A stretch of DNA of 25,029 nucleotides. Source: an uncultured Candidatus Saccharibacteria bacterium. Lineage in GTDB: Bacteria; Patescibacteriota; Minisyncoccia; Phycocordibacterales; UBA9973. Position 1 is the stretch's first letter. The number at the start of each line of letters is the position of its first letter. The stretch spans positions 2,177 through 27,205 of the forward strand of contig CAZHDU010000003.1 in NCBI GenBank assembly GCA_964531535.1, given 5' to 3'. The notes below the pieces were generated by a model. The model saw only the letters and a program-made list of their open reading frames with translations. It made no database searches and was not told the DNA's origin. This document shows, one piece after another, positions 2,420 through 6,390 of the stretch. A program made the translations under genes and the position numbers.

Positions 2420-3262
2420 CTAGGGAGCGACAATTTTAAATTCTGGACTAGAATATTTTTTCTGTTGATCGCTCTTACTAGAGATAACTATGCGAAAACC
2501 GTCACCTGGTAAAATTTTTCGTTCACCAAAAAGTTCAAGACGAGGAACCTTCCATGAAATATATTTTTCTGAAATAACTGCTCCCGTTTCTGGCGTTAGA
2601 CTAATACTGCCATTTTTATGGCCTAGAAATGCATAATCAGTTGCGCTAGAGATACTAAAACCTTCCCAAGTTATTTTATAAGTTTGACCCTCTATCAAGG
2701 TTGCACCAGAAGTGGGAAATGTAATTTTTCCATCCTTGGTCGCAGATGAAACAATTTTAAACACTGGACTATATTGTGTTGAAGCACCACTAGTAAAAGA
2801 AATACGATAACCATCTACTGGCGCCACAGTATGGTAACTATCACCACCATTCATATAACCAAGTATTGACGGTACAGTCCAAGAATATGATTTTTGTGAA
2901 GTTTCTCCAATTCTAATAGAACCAGCTTGATCATTTTCAAGATATAAACTGTAGCTGGTATTACTATTGGAATTTATCCAAGTTATATTGTAAGTTTGAC
3001 CTTCTATTAATGTCGCCCCTACCGTTGGAAATGTTACAGCTAATTTTTCTATTGTAGAACTTGGGTTTTTGTCTGCAGCTTTTTGAGGAGTAGCGTCACT
3101 ACTATCATCAACTAGTTCATCTTCTAGATTTTCTGCCTTATCATTAAAATTTTCTAGAGGTTTCTTGCTATTATAGATTGCATACCCACCACCTACTGCA
3201 CCTAAACCTAAAACCATTAGTAAAACTAACATTAAGGGAGCAAAACCTTTTTGATATTTCAT
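2420..3262 (-). CDS. Pilin-like N-terminally anchored surface protein with two tandem Ig-like/Ser-Thr-rich domains
   Basis: Likely start MKYQKG|FAPLMLVLL (ATG at 3262, preceded by TGTTG-TATAAT 7 nt upstream). Prepilin-like G|F plus a hydrophobic helix, then two repeats of xTFPTxGATLIEGQTYxITW...YSPxFKIV. Confidence 0.8.
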   Translation of the reverse strand: MKYQKGFAPLMLVLLMVLGLGAVGGGYAIYNSKKPLENFNDKAENLEDELVDDSSDATPQKAADKNPSSTIEKLAVTFPTVGATLIEGQTYNITWINSNSNTSYSLYLENDQAGSIRIGETSQKSYSWTVPSILGYMNGGDSYHTVAPVDGYRISFTSGASTQYSPVFKIVSSATKDGKITFPTSGATLIEGQTYKITWEGFSISSATDYAFLGHKNGSISLTPETGAVISEKYISWKVPRLELFGERKILPGDGFRIVISSKSDQQKKYSSPEFKIVAP

Positions 3263-3270
3263 ATTAAAGA

Positions 3271-3312
3271 TTATACAACATCCCCCCTCTTTTTCCACTC
3301 ATCAATTAGTTT
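3271..3312 (-). other. Orphan duplicate of the trmD 3' end (encodes KLIDEWKKRGDVV-stop)
   Basis: Minus strand aaa cta att gat gag tgg aaa aag agg ggg gat gtt gta taa, versus the current trmD end aaa ttg atc gat gag tgg aaa aat. Both encode KLIDEWK. Confidence 0.75.
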
Positions 3313-3996
3313 ACGTGTTCAGCGAGGCCTTGCCTAGCTGAAAATCATCTTTATAACTCAACCAATCTATAATTTCTCTAAGAAATGATTTTTTGCTTGG
3401 AAAGTACTTTGGGAAAACATCTATATTAAGAATCTTACCCTGCGTCCTGCCTTCTTCCAGAAAATCTAGATAGCTCGAATATCTATAGGTATTTAGATAT
3501 GTAAAAGCTTCTCCTTGATTCTTTATACCTACTTCTTTCCAATCACCCTGAATGAGTTTTACTGGATTTAAGTGAATATAAGAAAAAATATATTTTAAAT
3601 AACGATCTGTATCTAAATGCTGAGCTTTAAACTTACCCTCAAATAGACTACCTGTTCTTTGATACTTTTTATTAAAATACATTGAATATGCAGTGCTCAG
3701 TTTTTGCATAAAATTACTTATGTTTTCATCTCCAACTTGAGTGGTTAAAATATGAAAATGATTAGGCATTAGACAATATGCTCCGATACTCACTAAACAA
3801 TCATCACGATTTAAATCAAATAATGTTTGACCCTTTTTTAAATTACCAATCTTGAGATTGCCCTTCTGATTGCACGCATAAGACCAATGAAATGCATATA
3901 GTCCTCTGGGTCTAGAAAAATTCTTTGCTTACTATTTCCACGATTATATATGTGATAATATTCCCCAGAGACTAGTTTTACACTACGTGTCGACAT
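3311..3996 (-). pseudogene. REP-associated tyrosine transposase (RAYT/TnpA-REP, IS200/IS605 Y1 HUH family), frameshifted
   Basis: ATG at 3996 gives MSTRSVKLVSGEYYHIYNRGNSKQRIFLDPEDYMHFIGLM (YHIYNRG motif). The sequence then shifts frame near 3877-3880 into YACNQK...IGAYCLMPNHFHIL (HUH)...YFNKKYQRTGSLFEGKFK...YIHLNP (catalytic Tyr). Confidence 0.85.
3318..3342. repeat. REP-like palindrome copy 1
   Basis: ttcagcgaggc-ctt-gcctagctgaa: 11-bp stem with one mismatch and a 3-nt loop. Encodes the RAYT C-terminus QLGKASLN. Confidence 0.9.
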
Positions 3997-4018
3997 AACA
4001 TTATCATATCAAGCACTG

Positions 4019-4043
4019 TTCAGCTAGGCAAGGCCTAGCTGAA
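4019..4043. repeat. REP-like palindrome copy 2 (opposite orientation)
   Basis: ttcagctaggc-aag-gcctagctgaa: perfect 11-bp stem, just upstream of the RAYT start. Confidence 0.9.
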
Positions 4044-4047
4044 AACC

Positions 4048-4076
4048 TTGACTATGACCACAATAAGTCCTAATCT
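4048..4076 (+). promoter_or_regulatory. Sigma70-type promoter for cargo ORF 4122
   Basis: TTGACT (4048-4053), 17 bp, TAATCT (4071-4076). Confidence 0.55.
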
Positions 4077-4121
4077 GAATTTTAGTTTTGCTCCCAACAC
4101 AAGAAACAAAGGAAAGGAATA

Positions 4122-4544
4122 ATGATACCCTACGCACAGAGCATATTGCCAGCTGACGATGTGCAGTTGCTTATGCGCATAAGGCAAGCACTGGAAGCAT
4201 TGCCAGACATCGATCTGGGTGTCGACGAAGAAGGTGAAGAGATCACCCTCTCTTGCCACATACTGTCACGGGCTGTGGCGAAGGTCTTCGGTCTGAAGTG
4301 TCGAAGTGGCTTCTACTATCCAGGGTTCTCTCACTCCTGGCTGGTAACAGCTTCAAACAACGTCATCGATGTACTCCCGCCAGGCATAGTGGGTGGACCA
4401 ATATTGGCGGATGGAAGCCCTTACTCTCCGTCTATCAAACAGTACATCAGGCGAGACGTCAGAAAGATTTCCGACGGTAACTTTAGCCAACCGAGTTTCC
4501 GTCGTTCAGTGAGAAGAATCATCCGTGAACTTAAAAATAAATAG
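4122..4544 (+). CDS. Hypothetical protein, possible transglutaminase/papain-like Cys-His-Asp enzyme
   Basis: 140-aa ORF with its own promoter, an AGGAAAGGA Shine-Dalgarno-like site and a terminator. Motifs SC45HIL, G...H71SWL, VID83V. Confidence 0.7.
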   Translation: MIPYAQSILPADDVQLLMRIRQALEALPDIDLGVDEEGEEITLSCHILSRAVAKVFGLKCRSGFYYPGFSHSWLVTASNNVIDVLPPGIVGGPILADGSPYSPSIKQYIRRDVRKISDGNFSQPSFRRSVRRIIRELKNK

Positions 4545-4558
4545 GAAAGGACCTCATC

Positions 4559-4600
4559 GCACCCAGAAAGTATCCCAACTTCTCTGGGTGCTTTCTATTT
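4559..4600 (+). terminator. Intrinsic terminator after ORF 4122-4544
   Basis: gcacccaga (4559-4567) pairs with tctgggtgc (4583-4591), followed by tttctattt. Confidence 0.65.
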
Positions 4601-4633
4601 AAAGCTCAGCTAGGCCTTGCCTAGCTGAGCTTT
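4601..4633. repeat. REP-like palindrome copy 3, containing the trmD stop codon
   Basis: aaagctcagctaggc-ctt-gcctagctgagcttt: perfect 15-bp stem. The trmD TAG is at 4623-4621. Confidence 0.9.
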
Positions 4634-5280
4634 GTCTTATTTTTCCACTCATCGATCAATTTATGGTTGCCAGATAAGAGTATTTTAGGGACTTTGTAGT
4701 TTTTACCCTGAGCTTTGCCGAAGGGATATTTCAAGACTTCCGGGCGAGTGTAGACTTCACTACTAGATACCCGCTCTTCTTCTAAAGACTCGTACGTACC
4801 CAAAACCCCAGGAACCTGGCGAGAAATAGAATCGATCAAAACCATAGCCGGAATTTCACCTCCAGTCAGCACATAATCCCCGATTGATATTTCTTCGGCT
4901 TTAAGAATCTTTTGCACTCGGGCATCTATCCCCTCGTATCTTCCAGAAATTAAAATTATGTCTGTATATTTTTTTGCAGATTTTTTAGCGTATTCAGTGT
5001 CGAATTTTTTACCACTTGGAGAAAATAGAATAGTCTTTGTCGTCTTTTTATTTTTAATTTTTATTTTAGAAAAAGCTTTCAGAAAAAATTCTGGTCGCAA
5101 CACCATCCCTGGCCCTCCGCCATAAGGCCGACCGTCGACCCGCTCTTTGGGCTTACAAAAACTCATTGGATTATAAAATCTTACAGAGATTTTTTTGTCC
5201 TTAATCGCCCGGCCCAAAATAGACTCTTGTAAATAAGAATCAAACATCTCTGGAAAAATTGTAATTATGTGGAAATTCAT
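4621..5280 (-). CDS. trmD: tRNA (guanine37-N1)-methyltransferase
   Basis: MNFHIITIFPEMF, VDGRPYGGGPGMVL, SGRYEGIDARV, SIGDYVLTGGEIPAM, VPKILLSGNH. Confidence 0.97.
   Translation of the reverse strand: MNFHIITIFPEMFDSYLQESILGRAIKDKKISVRFYNPMSFCKPKERVDGRPYGGGPGMVLRPEFFLKAFSKIKIKNKKTTKTILFSPSGKKFDTEYAKKSAKKYTDIILISGRYEGIDARVQKILKAEEISIGDYVLTGGEIPAMVLIDSISRQVPGVLGTYESLEEERVSSSEVYTRPEVLKYPFGKAQGKNYKVPKILLSGNHKLIDEWKNKTKLS
4706..4725 (-). repeat. Short palindromic element in-frame within trmD (PFGKAQG)
   Basis: cccttcggcaaagctcaggg, with CCCT/AGGG ends and a central ggc-aaa-gct hairpin. It interrupts ...LKY-[PFGKAQ]-GKNYKVP. Confidence 0.55.
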
Positions 5281-5341
5281 ATAAATAGCTTATAGCTATT
5301 AGGTTATAGCTTGTGGCTTAAAAAAGCAACCAGAAATTAGA

Positions 5342-5376
5342 AATCGCCGCCGGGACGACAATCCCTAACGGCGATT
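5342..5376 (-). terminator. Probable terminator after ORF 5402-5704
   Basis: aatcgccg/cggcgatt outer stem plus ggga/tccc inner stem, followed by tctaatttct on the minus strand. Confidence 0.55.
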
Positions 5377-5401
5377 AGATGCAAACTCGCCTTTTGGCCT
5401 C

Positions 5402-5704
5402 TTACGAAGTCGAGCAGGTTGTGGGGATTTCGACCAGGGTGCCGATGTTGAGATCGGTCAGCTTGGTCAGACGACCCGGAACCACGTCGGCGCCCTTGAA
5501 CGGGCCGACGAACACCCGGGTTTCCCCAGAAAGTTCGACCTGGATCGCTCCAGGGCCAGGATCCGCGGGTGGCAGGTATTTCACATGCCGCACGACGCCG
5601 CAGCTGGACATCGGCATCGGCAGAGTGTTGGTCGAACTGGACATAGCGAACAGTCCCAAAACGGCCAACACAGCGACACAGCCAAGAACAACACGCTCAT
5701 TCAT
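5402..5704 (-). CDS. Small GC-rich secreted/membrane-anchored hypothetical protein
   Basis: GGAGG about 8 nt upstream of ATG 5704. MNERVVLGCVAVLAVLGLFAMSSS is signal-peptide-like, there are two Cys in the mature part, and a downstream terminator. Preferred over the antisense ORF 5379-5765. Confidence 0.6.
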   Translation of the reverse strand: MNERVVLGCVAVLAVLGLFAMSSSTNTLPMPMSSCGVVRHVKYLPPADPGPGAIQVELSGETRVFVGPFKGADVVPGRLTKLTDLNIGTLVEIPTTCSTS

Positions 5705-5800
5705 TTTTTCGCCCTCCAGGGATAGCGGAGAAATGGACCCATCCATTCACGCCACCCCTTTCTAATCTAAATATAGATATACCACAAATCCACAAAAAAT

Positions 5801-5843: not shown

Positions 5844-6224
5844 TTATATTCCCTTAATCTCATCCATTGCCTCGTCGATAGTCTTTAAGACACTCGGTGC
5901 AGCGCCTGGAGATCTCTCACCAGCTGGTCGAGGAGGGACAGTCATACTGCTTCCCCCATCCATGTGTCTGGTGCCACCTTCTGGTTCGTTGATCTTTAGG
6001 TTTACGCGAGCATTGTTCTTCATACCGATAATGCGGAGCAATGTGCGGATAGCCTTGGCAGTGTTACCCATTCGTCCGATAATCTTACCCATATCAGCTG
6101 GGTTTACAGTCAACGTAATGAGCACGCCCATCTCGTCTACTGTTCTTTCGATGACTACATCGTTTGGATTGTCTACTAGAGCCTTGACCACGTATTCCAA
6201 AAATATCTTGTCTGCGTCTTCCAT
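5844..6224 (-). CDS. khpA: KH-domain RNA-binding protein (KhpA/YlqC)
   Basis: FLEYVVKALVDNPNDV...DMGKIIGRMGNTAKAIRTLL (GxxG KH loop); directly downstream of rpsP, as in the conserved rpsP-khpA locus. Confidence 0.9.
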   Translation of the reverse strand: MEDADKIFLEYVVKALVDNPNDVVIERTVDEMGVLITLTVNPADMGKIIGRMGNTAKAIRTLLRIIGMKNNARVNLKINEPEGGTRHMDGGSSMTVPPRPAGERSPGAAPSVLKTIDEAMDEIKGI

Positions 6225-6285: not shown

Positions 6286-6314
6286 ATTATACCCTGTAGT
6301 ATTTTTTTTGCAAA
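6286..6314 (-). promoter_or_regulatory. Internal promoter for khpA
   Basis: Minus strand TTTGCA/TTGCAA (about 6314-6308), 16-17 bp, TATAAT (6291-6286). Confidence 0.5.
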
Positions 6315-6390
6315 ATTTTCTACAAGCTAAACCCCAAAATTCCACATCTTGAGGTTTAAAACTAATTAATATTTATTTTAGACAAAGAAA

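What the first reader, a model, noticed from the sequence alone, without database searches (positions are those of the whole stretch)
3271..4663. REP-bounded RAYT + cargo unit inserted into the trmD 3' end, leaving a displaced copy of the gene tail
Seen directly: 24-bp direct repeats exactly 1350 bp apart (3290-3313 and 4640-4663). Their three mismatches are all synonymous in the trmD frame (ttg/cta Leu, atc/att Ile), and the distal copy continues as a complete orphan tail KLIDEWKKRGDVV-stop. Between them lies REP3-cargo-REP2-RAYT-REP1. REP3 supplies the current trmD stop codon, and the RAYT stop abuts the distal repeat. RAYTs are established as REP-flanked HUH Y1 enzymes usually regarded as domesticated and non-mobile. 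This architecture instead resembles integration of a circular REP/RAYT/cargo unit that carries a replacement gene end, like an integrase attP but with no integrase present. That is inference, and could represent an undescribed gene-end-targeting cargo-delivery system. Alternative: homologous-recombination patchwork in which the orphan tail arrived together with the downstream gene.
Basis: partly seen in the sequence, partly recalled or inferred. Interest (0 to 1): 0.8.

Follow-up and report, generated by a model that had tools for sequence, protein, structure and literature searches.

The report
Displaced trmD gene tail beside RAYT
A REP-flanked RAYT gene plus a small enzyme gene sits between two copies of the end of the housekeeping gene trmD; the same kind of leftover gene end recurs in related species around unrelated genes with no RAYT, so it is best read as a scar of ordinary recombination at a gene-insertion hot spot, not a new RAYT-driven delivery system.

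Summary
There are 24-nt repeats at 3290-3313 and 4640-4663 (21/24, three synonymous mismatches), an orphan tail KLIDEWKKRGDVV-stop, the order REP3-cargo-REP2-RAYT-REP1 between the repeats, the trmD stop inside REP3, and the RAYT stop on the distal repeat. The predicted empty site exists: contigs L034-L036 carry trmD ending KKRGNIV, followed 8 nt later by a homologue of the downstream gene, and their alignments to the two window flanks overlap by exactly the 24 nt.

The RAYT-driven reading is not supported.
- A sister lineage (L031/L032, about 95% identical) carries the same unit with an intact RAYT but no orphan tail.
- The five closest RAYT orthologues (69-75% identical) all lie between trmD and rpoB. 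Their divergence matches that of the neighbouring genes, so the RAYT looks like a long-term resident.
- Eleven other species of about 202 in the genus have orphan trmD tails. Ten of these flank unrelated cargo or only a hairpin, with no RAYT. The duplicated length ranges from 24 to about 190 nt, so there is no fixed att site.
- Two other genes in this genome show the same tail duplication.

Best reading: additive recombination between lineages, anchored in trmD homology, at a trmD-rpoB accessory-gene hot spot. The exact route (single crossover of a circle, or homology-facilitated illegitimate recombination) is unresolved. Interest is moderate.

The parts
4621..5280 (-). trmD (tRNA m1G37 methyltransferase), 219 aa, ending ...HKLIDEWKNKTKLS-stop. 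It is a mosaic of two allele types.
   Evidence: Pfam tRNA_m1G_MT E 3.3e-39. The mosaic is mostly L031-like, with L035-like patches at gene positions 211-266 and 598-630.
4640..4663 (-). Proximal 24-nt repeat. It is the KLIDEWK-coding part of the functional trmD.
   Evidence: It is identical to the single copy in the empty-site contigs L035/L036.
4601..4633 (.). REP3 palindrome. It supplies the last codons and the stop of trmD (AGC TAG).
4556..4600 (+). Imperfect hairpin followed by a T-rich run after the cargo ORF. It looks like a terminator for the cargo gene.
   Evidence: Read directly from the sequence; not tested with the terminator scan.
4122..4544 (+). Cargo ORF of 140 aa at about 52% GC, with a conserved Cys45/His71/Asp83. 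It is a putative transglutaminase-fold Cys-His-Asp enzyme.
   Evidence: No Pfam or NCBIfam hit. About 30 homologues in Patescibacteria, in unrelated contexts. Conserved triad in alignment A1. AF2 model pLDDT 90.9. Weak fold matches (Z 5-7) are enriched in LapG, NAT, protein-glutaminase and PeiW folds.
4018..4044 (.). REP2. Its 23-nt core is 100% complementary to REP3, so the cargo sits inside a REP doublet.
   Evidence: I2
3311..3996 (-). RAYT pseudogene (HUH Y1 family). It is frameshifted by a 4-nt deletion near 3880, and its 3' end reads through REP1.
   Evidence: Pfam Y1_Tnp. NCBIfam REP_Tyr_transpos E 1.3e-12 but below the cutoff, scored on the intact L031 copy. 682/696 nt identical to L031, with the 4-nt gap.
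3318..3342 (.). REP1. Four bases separate it from the distal repeat.
3271..3313 (-). Orphan trmD tail KLIDEWKKRGDVV-stop (distal repeat 3290-3313 plus 19 nt). It is contiguous with the native upstream region of the next gene.
   Evidence: It is homologous to the real trmD end plus downstream region in L034-L036.
2420..3262 (-). Downstream gene for a membrane-anchored Ig-like (Kre9/KNH-like) surface protein. This is a variable cassette; the sister lineage has a different 210-aa gene here.
   Evidence: Pfam PF10342
1..2175 (-). rpoB 5' part. It is the conserved right border of the variable interval.

Best explanation
The two 24-nt repeats are the conserved KLIDEWK-coding stretches of two different natural trmD alleles. 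One allele ends NKTK..., the other KRG.... The arrangement is a recombination scar at a hot spot for accessory genes between trmD and rpoB in this Paceibacteria-like (CPR) genus.

DNA from a related lineage was added rather than swapped. The recombination was anchored in the conserved 3' part of trmD. The other join was either an illegitimate junction (homology-facilitated illegitimate recombination) or the second product of a single crossover with a circular or tandem copy. One complete trmD is kept, now ending inside REP3. The other allele's tail is pushed downstream, still attached to the upstream region of the next gene.

The REP-RAYT-REP module is a long-term resident of this interval. 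A transglutaminase-fold cargo gene was later caught in a REP doublet beside it. On this reading the RAYT is a passenger, not the engine. For this window the single-crossover route is one possible fit, but the support is weak (see the Against line) and I cannot choose between the two routes.

Shown: the insertion/empty-site polymorphism, the allele identities, the recurrence and the synteny. Inferred: the recombination route and its direction.
For: 1. Empty site. L034-L036 have trmD ending KKRGNIV, then 8 nt, then a homologue of the downstream gene. Their alignments to window 5301-4640 and to window 3313-3091 overlap by exactly the 24 nt.
2. Both tail types are natural trmD ends among the closest homologues. 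P0002 ends NKTKLN and P0003/P0004 end KKRGNIV. NKTK-type ends also occur among other trmD homologues (their loci were not checked for a unit).
3. The window's trmD is a fine-scale mosaic of the two lineages, so recombination between them has happened.
4. The sister lineage L031/L032 has the same unit at 95% identity, equal to its flanks. It has no orphan tail and a different downstream gene (also in runs X3 and X4).
5. The five closest RAYT orthologues (69-75% aa identity) all lie between trmD and rpoB, flanked by the same REP type. Their divergence is similar to that of trmD, KH and rpoB.
6. Orphan trmD tails occur in G057, G088, G117, G135, G143, G150, G181, G002, G192, G198 and G191. Ten of the eleven have no RAYT between the copies, G192 being the exception. 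In the eight inspected closely, the cargo includes PemK-type toxin-antitoxin pairs and several unrelated ORFs, and G150 has only a hairpin. The duplicated length is 24 to about 190 nt at 81-89% identity.
7. Two more tail duplications occur in this genome, at an S1-domain gene (C16) and a membrane-protein gene (C17). Neither has REP or RAYT.
8. A second hit to the S1-gene tail appears in about 4 other species (not inspected).
9. Displaced orphan 3' ends explained by homology-facilitated illegitimate recombination are described for T6SS and rhs loci (PMC5361080). RAYTs are reported as mainly vertically inherited (PMC5581495).
Against: 1. The route is not observed. There are no reads for a circle or an excision junction, because only contigs were available.
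2. In three cases a REP of this family directly abuts the 5' edge of the orphan: this window (4 nt), G192 (about 7-12 nt) and G143 (0-3 nt). Some REP or RAYT contribution to making the junction is therefore not excluded.
3. The A/B mosaic is ambiguous. The proximal patch is 47/47 identical to L035, while the orphan region is only about 85% identical. The 'donor-like' start of the distal repeat rests on three synonymous sites that vary widely in the genus.
4. An empty site can arise by secondary deletion between the repeats as well as being ancestral.
Confidence: 0.6

Rival explanations
1. The duplication is old. The tail was duplicated when the REP-RAYT module first arrived at the trmD end in an ancestor. 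The orphan was then trimmed or lost in some lineages (L031, G211, G129). The 'empty sites' in L034-L036 are secondary precise deletions made by recombination between the two tail copies. The mechanism is the same as in the best explanation, but the direction and age differ.
For: RAYT orthologues are syntenic at trmD-rpoB in five other species, and G192 also has trmD-REP-RAYT-REP-orphan tail. Recombination between direct repeats would regenerate exactly the chimeric single tail seen in L034-L036.
Against: The orphan tails of G192 (KVLLSGDHKKIEEWKKTNPGDL...) and of the window (KLIDEWKKRGDVV) differ in length and sequence. The RAYT-less orphan cases need independent events anyway. The trmD genes of L034-L036 are closer to the window than those of the RAYT-bearing species are, so several losses would be required.
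Confidence: 0.2
2. The REP/RAYT/cargo unit is a self-mobilising element. Its HUH enzyme excises it as a circle at the REPs, and it integrates into the trmD 3' end while carrying a replacement gene end.
For: The insert is bounded by REPs. The RAYT is intact in the sister lineage. REP1 lies 4 nt from the orphan, and REPs also abut orphans in G192 and G143. The RAYT family is multi-copy in the genus, up to 9 per genome.
Against: The same unit occurs without duplication in the sister. The orthologues are syntenic with neighbour-like divergence. There is no second copy of the unit in the genome; paralogues are at most 55% identical, and each has its own hairpin. The REP-to-orphan distance is not constant. 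Ten of the eleven other orphan-bearing species have no RAYT or REP between the copies. An IS608-type insertion at the repeat's 5' edge predicts the opposite allocation of the polymorphic bases from that observed. The local RAYT is frameshifted.
Confidence: 0.08
3. The repeats are the attL/attR remnant of an integrase-mediated island that targeted the trmD 3' end and later lost its integrase. REP/RAYT and the cargo are later or surviving occupants.
For: Replacement of gene 3' ends with diverged duplicates is typical of integrase-borne islands (general knowledge). The cargo differs in GC content.
Against: No recombinase gene lies in the insert here. No recombinase-like ORF was noticed in the eight other insert loci read through, although those ORFs were not scanned against domain libraries. 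The 5' edge of the orphan falls at very different trmD positions, 24 to about 190 nt before the variable end, so there is no common core site. Other genes show the same pattern with unrelated repeat sequences.
Confidence: 0.05
4. Assembly artefact: a chimeric join of two strains at the repeat.
For: The genome is an 80-contig MAG with 5% contamination, and strain variants coexist in related samples.
Against: The repeat is only 24 nt with three mismatches, too short to mislead an assembler. Logan contigs of two runs span each junction by more than 100 nt with no differences. Those runs may be the source sample, so this support is not independent. Analogous structures occur in at least 11 other assemblies.
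Confidence: 0.02

Closest known systems
REP-associated tyrosine transposase (RAYT) with flanking REPs (Nunvar 2010, PMC2817692; Bertels 2017, PMC5581495)
   Same: It is an HUH/Tyr Y1 protein flanked on both sides by its cognate palindrome. Each RAYT paralogue in this genome has its own hairpin type. Orthologues are syntenic across species, consistent with vertical inheritance.
   Different: Only about 6-7 REP copies occur in the genome, and two of them lie in frame inside ligA and rsmI. The family is multi-copy in the genus. The score is below the NCBIfam equivalog cutoff. A protein-coding cargo gene sits inside the REP2/REP3 doublet. The local copy is frameshifted.
Displacement of gene 3' ends leaving orphan tails in rhs, CDI and T6SS effector loci, attributed to homology-facilitated illegitimate recombination (Kirchberger 2017, PMC5361080, and references therein)
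   Same: A conserved 5' gene part acts as the anchor. New DNA is added downstream and the older 3' ends are pushed further down. Arrays can be nested (three trmD tail pieces in G143). No element-encoded recombinase is involved.
   Different: Here the gene is a housekeeping tRNA methyltransferase, and the displaced piece is only 13-65 codons with no immunity-gene logic. The organisms are ultra-small CPR bacteria. The recombination route has not been demonstrated.
Minimal mobile elements of Neisseria (Saunders & Snyder 2002, cited in PMC1538595)
   Same: An interval between two conserved genes (trmD and rpoB) holds different whole-gene cassettes in different lineages, probably exchanged through flanking homology.
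   Different: As I recall them, classical minimal mobile elements are replaced cleanly by double crossover. Here a fraction of events is additive and leaves duplicated gene ends.
Integrase-borne genomic islands at gene 3' ends (attL/attR)
   Same: A gene end is duplicated, with one copy completing the gene and one left as an orphan.
   Different: There is no integrase, no fixed core and the duplication length varies.

Membership tests
RAYT (REP-associated tyrosine transposase) | HUH motif and catalytic tyrosine of the Y1 transposase fold | tested here: met
   Pfam Y1_Tnp E 3.8e-9, 37 bits against a cutoff of 23. PNHFHIL and YIHLNPV are visible in the translation.
RAYT (REP-associated tyrosine transposase) | Match to the curated RAYT equivalog model | tested here: inconclusive
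   NCBIfam NF047646 REP_Tyr_transpos E 1.3e-12, but 47.9 bits is below the 80-bit cutoff.
RAYT (REP-associated tyrosine transposase) | Gene flanked by its cognate REP palindromes | tested here: met
   REP2 lies upstream and REP1 at the 3' end. The same holds in orthologues L050-L054. The other paralogues have their own hairpins.
RAYT (REP-associated tyrosine transposase) | Cognate REPs or REPINs dispersed in many extragenic copies | tested here: not met
   Only 6-7 copies in 726 kb; three are at this locus and two lie inside ORFs.
RAYT (REP-associated tyrosine transposase) | Vertical, housekeeping-like inheritance at a conserved locus | tested here: met
   The five closest orthologues all lie between trmD and rpoB, with neighbour-like divergence. 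No tree was built.
IS200/IS605-type autonomous transposon | Several near-identical copies, with insertion 3' of a short fixed target and no duplication | tested here: not met
   There is no second copy of the unit, and paralogues are at most 55% identical. The flanks carry a 24-nt homologous repeat.
Integrase-mediated island at a gene 3' end | Tyrosine or serine recombinase gene in or beside the insert, and a constant core crossover site | tested here: not met
   No recombinase is found in the window insert. None was noticed among the ORFs listed for eight other inserts, which were not domain-scanned. The 5' edges of the orphans vary from 24 to about 190 nt.
3'-end displacement by additive recombination (HFIR-type) | One intact gene plus one or more displaced homologous 3' fragments downstream, of variable length, diverged like alleles | tested here: met
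   Seen in the window and in 11 other species. Copy identity is 81-89%, and fragments are nested in G143.
3'-end displacement by additive recombination (HFIR-type) | Illegitimate joint with microhomology; a DNA-uptake or recombination system present | not tested
   The joints were read but microhomology was not assessed statistically. Competence and recA genes were not searched for.
Campbell-type single crossover of a circular intermediate | Reciprocal distribution of donor and recipient polymorphisms in the two repeats; a detectable circle | tested here: inconclusive
   The pattern is compatible but rests on three synonymous sites. No raw reads were available to look for a circle.

The most novel reading that the evidence does not exclude
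Tail-duplicating, recombinase-free gene gain may be a general and frequent route of accessory-gene acquisition in these ultra-small CPR genomes. Cassettes that carry a copy of the 3' end of a conserved gene would loop out by recombination between the tail repeats. They would then re-integrate by a single RecA-type crossover into the same gene end in relatives, possibly helped by REP hairpins or RAYT nicking at the cassette border. Conserved gene ends would then serve as portable attachment sites without any integrase.
Probability: 0.2. Interest if true: 0.65.

Novelty: new variant of a known kind. Interest (0 to 1): 0.42.

Why it matters
CPR/Patescibacteria genomes are tiny and carry few classical mobile elements, yet they vary in gene content. 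This locus shows one concrete route. The interval between trmD and rpoB collects toxin-antitoxin pairs, surface proteins, a RAYT and small enzymes. About 6% of species in the genus keep a leftover trmD end as a footprint of additive recombination. Such orphan gene ends could be used as markers to map recombination-driven gene gain genome-wide in uncultured lineages. The result also corrects a tempting over-reading, since the evidence here fits the RAYT being a resident and not a delivery vehicle. The REP doublet enclosing a gene, and the REPs translated inside ligA and rsmI, are small additions to REP/RAYT biology outside Proteobacteria.

Tried and rejected
- Rfam (gathering threshold) and tRNA scans of the whole window found nothing, so there is no tRNA-type attachment site and no known RNA in the GC-rich island.
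- Exact and degenerate searches for the orphan-tail junction in JGI metagenome contigs and GTDB genome contigs found nothing.
- A homologue search with the downstream Ig-like protein found no close relative (best 45% identity over the full length), so no closer empty-site strain could be found.
- Cargo homologues in four other contigs show no flanking REPs or gene-end repeats. The cargo is therefore not generally carried by this kind of unit.
- Laying public runs gave only assembled contigs, with no circle junction and no empty-site variant. This says nothing about rare forms.
- Foldseek against the PDB gave no significant match for the cargo model. Only the weaker VIA-align hits point to the transglutaminase-like fold.
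- No orphan KH-gene tail lies in the GC-rich island 5330-5796.
- A shared motif among the three repeat pairs in this genome (trmD, C16, C17) was looked for by eye and none was seen.
- G118 (one ORF with a split match), G193 (two contigs) and G175 (weak hit) were dropped from the orphan count. G182 was not inspected.
Full report
**1. What is in the sequence**

The region is read on the minus strand in this order:
- KH-domain gene (5844-6224)
- a GC-rich island (5330-5796)
- trmD (4621-5280)
- REP3 (core 4604-4630)
- a plus-strand 140-aa cargo ORF (4122-4544)
- REP2 (4018-4044)
- a frameshifted RAYT (3311-3996)
- REP1 (3318-3342)
- an orphan trmD tail (3271-3313)
- a membrane-anchored Ig-like protein gene (2420-3262)
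- rpoB (1-2175)

The 24-nt direct repeat (3290-3313 and 4640-4663) is 21/24 identical at 1350 nt spacing. Its three mismatches are synonymous in the trmD frame, and the distal copy continues as KLIDEWKKRGDVV-stop. REP3 provides the last codons and the stop of trmD (...KLS-stop, AGC TAG). The RAYT reads through REP1 and stops on the first bases of the distal repeat.

Logan contigs of two public runs match the window at 100% and cross both junctions. This gives no hint of misassembly, although those runs may be the source sample.

**2. The organism and the REP/RAYT system**

The genome is a 726-kb, 80-contig MAG. Its closest TrmD homologues are labelled Paceibacterota/Patescibacteria.

The REP (TTCAGCTAGGC-NNN-GCCTAGCTGAA) occurs only 6-7 times. 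Three copies are here, and two lie in frame inside ligA and an rsmI-like gene, where they encode SARQGLAEV.

The genome has three further RAYT paralogues (32-55% identical), each flanked by its own hairpin type. This is the classical pairing of a RAYT with its cognate REP.

The local RAYT carries the HUH motif and the tyrosine region. It has a 4-nt deletion near 3880 compared with the intact 225-aa copy in the sister contig L031 (682/696 nt identical). It passes Pfam Y1_Tnp but stays below the NCBIfam RAYT equivalog cutoff.

**3.

Among the closest TrmD homologues both tail types exist as real gene ends. P0002 (92% identical) ends NKTKLN. P0003 (92%) and P0004 (88%) end KKRGNIV.

The contigs that encode P0003 and P0004 (L034-L036) have trmD followed after 8 nt by a homologue of the downstream gene. 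Window 5301-4640 and window 3313-3091 align to adjacent stretches of those contigs that overlap by exactly 24 nt. Relative to them, window 3314-4639 is therefore an insertion bounded by the repeat, and the orphan tail is a genuine trmD end.

**4. Evidence against the RAYT unit as the agent**

(a) Contigs L031/L032 come from two other samples, and the same form appears in runs X3 and X4. They are about 95-96% identical to the window over RNase R, S16, KH, trmD and rpoB. They carry the same trmD-REP3-cargo-REP2-RAYT-REP1 unit at 95% identity, with an intact RAYT. After REP1 there is no orphan tail, only a different 210-aa gene.

(b) The RAYT family is common and multi-copy in the genus: 145 of 212 genomes have a match, with up to 9 copies each. 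However, the five closest orthologues (69-75% identical; G211, G129, G192, G158, G008) all lie between trmD and rpoB, flanked by the same REP type. Their divergence is similar to that of the neighbouring trmD (61-71%), KH (71-78%) and rpoB N-terminus (78-86%). This is the signature of a long-resident, vertically inherited RAYT, as described for the family (PMC5581495).

(c) Orphan trmD tails are recurrent. A degenerate pattern and a search with the C-terminal 54 aa of TrmD over 212 species-level genomes of the genus flagged second copies. Inspection confirmed them in G057, G088, G117, G135, G143, G150, G181, G002, G192, G198 and G191. With the window this makes 12 of about 202 genomes that have a trmD match.
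- Ten of the eleven have no RAYT between the copies; G192 is the exception.
- In the eight inspected closely, the cargo includes PemK-type toxin-antitoxin pairs and several unrelated ORFs. G150 has only a hairpin.
- The orphan begins anywhere from 24 to about 190 nt before the variable end of the gene. The copies are 81-89% identical, like alleles of different lineages.
- G143 holds three nested tail pieces.
- No recombinase gene was found in the window insert, and none was noticed among the ORFs listed for the eight other inserts, which were not domain-scanned.
- A fixed attachment site is therefore excluded.

(d) The same genome holds two more examples at unrelated genes. An S1-domain gene on contig C16 has its last 47 nt repeated at 45/47 after a 227-aa opposite-strand gene. 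A membrane-protein gene on C17 has its last 40 nt repeated at 39/40 after a 412-aa ORF. Neither locus has REP or RAYT. A second hit to the S1-gene tail is seen in about four other species (not inspected).

**5. Why the repeat ends where it does**

The 3' edge of the repeat (after GAGTGGAAAAA) is simply where TrmD alleles stop being conserved. The residues after EWK vary freely across the genus. The only real junction is the 5' edge of the orphan, and it lies at a different place in each case.

**6. Likely route**

The window's trmD is a fine mosaic. It is mostly L031-like, with L035-like patches at gene positions 211-266 and 598-630, and it switches to the L031-like tail right after the repeat. 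The distal repeat starts with bases that match L031's proximal copy and then continues L035-like.

This is the pattern expected if an L031-type circular or tandem copy of [tail-REP3-cargo-REP2-RAYT-REP1] integrated by one crossover inside the repeat, into a genome whose trmD end and downstream gene were of the other type. The support is weak for two reasons.
- The 'donor-like' start rests on three synonymous sites that vary widely in the genus.
- The proximal patch is 47/47 identical to L035, while the orphan region is only about 85% identical.

The alternative is homology-facilitated illegitimate recombination, with one end anchored in trmD or rpoB homology and the other joined illegitimately. 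It explains the variable orphan lengths equally well, and it is the published explanation for displaced orphan 3' ends in T6SS and rhs loci (PMC5361080).

The empty sites could also be secondary deletions between the repeats.

In three cases a REP of this family directly abuts the orphan: the window, G192 and G143. The distance is not constant (0-12 nt), and a REP is also simply the last feature of the preceding gene. I therefore give little weight to RAYT-made joints, but I do not exclude them.

**7. The cargo**

The 140-aa ORF has about 30 homologues, nearly all in Patescibacteria. They sit as singletons in unrelated places with no REPs around them. Cys45, His71 and Asp83 are invariant or nearly so. 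A confident AF2 model (pLDDT 90.9) has no significant Foldseek match. Its best VIA-align matches (Z 5-7, below the level that can be trusted alone) are enriched in transglutaminase-like Cys-His-Asp enzymes such as LapG, arylamine N-acetyltransferases, protein glutaminase and PeiW. I read it as a small transglutaminase-fold enzyme of unknown substrate.

The cargo lies between REP3 and REP2, whose cores are perfectly complementary. Orthologous loci without the cargo have only trmD-REP-RAYT-REP. The cargo with one REP was therefore added later.

**8. Comparison with known systems and verdict**

The RAYT/REP part is an ordinary, if REP-poor, member of a known kind. The orphan tail belongs with displaced 3' ends in polymorphic toxin loci and with cassette exchange between conserved genes (the minimal mobile elements of Neisseria). 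Here it applies to a housekeeping gene in CPR bacteria and recurs in about 6% of species of one genus. That makes it a new variant of a known kind, with moderate interest. The claim of an undescribed RAYT-based gene-end-targeting delivery system is not supported.

The genus counts include three unpublished genomes (G098-G100). G098 and G099 showed a single trmD-tail match and G100 none, so no specific claim rests on them.

Noticed in passing
window 5330-5796: A GC-rich island (about 60% GC against about 35% around it) lies between the KH gene and trmD, with a 114-aa minus-strand ORF (5402-5746) that has no Pfam hit. It is absent from the sister contigs L031-L033 and from runs X3/X4. It has no Rfam hit and no duplicated KH gene tail. 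A 36-nt piece (5340-5374) recurs upstream of trmD in L034/L035.
   Followed up: partly
G000 contig C40:5057-5077 (ligA) and C5:14514-14534 (rsmI-like): Copies of the same REP lie in frame inside two housekeeping genes and encode SARQGLAEV. This resembles the in-frame palindromic elements of Rickettsia.
   Followed up: partly
window 4706-4725; L045 (G143:C2) trmD: Small hairpin-like inserts are translated inside trmD. PFGKAQ occurs in the window and its close relatives. An 11-codon hairpin insert (ACPVGSTLSFG) lies between NYK and VPK in G143, and a related hairpin alone separates the two tails in G150.
   Followed up: partly
G000 contig C16:1356-1402 and about 2113-2160; contig C17:5001-5040 and about 6292-6331: Two further gene-tail duplications flank inserted genes: an S1-domain gene with a 227-aa surface-protein gene, and a membrane-protein gene with a 412-aa ORF. 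The copies are 45/47 and 39/40 identical, and neither locus has REP or RAYT.
   Followed up: partly
G000 contigs C4:2805-3452, C21:7740-8363, C15:7354-7986: Three more RAYT paralogues, each flanked on both sides by its own distinct hairpin (for example AAAATAGTGGACAC-TCG-GTGTCCACTATTTT around the C4 copy).
   Followed up: partly
L041 (G057:C16) and L044 (G135:C2): A PemK-like toxin gene with its antitoxin sits between the trmD tail copies in two different species.
   Followed up: no
window 4018-4044 and 4604-4630: REP2 and REP3 form a perfectly complementary inverted pair that encloses a whole gene, like a REPIN doublet with a 560-nt coding spacer.
   Followed up: no
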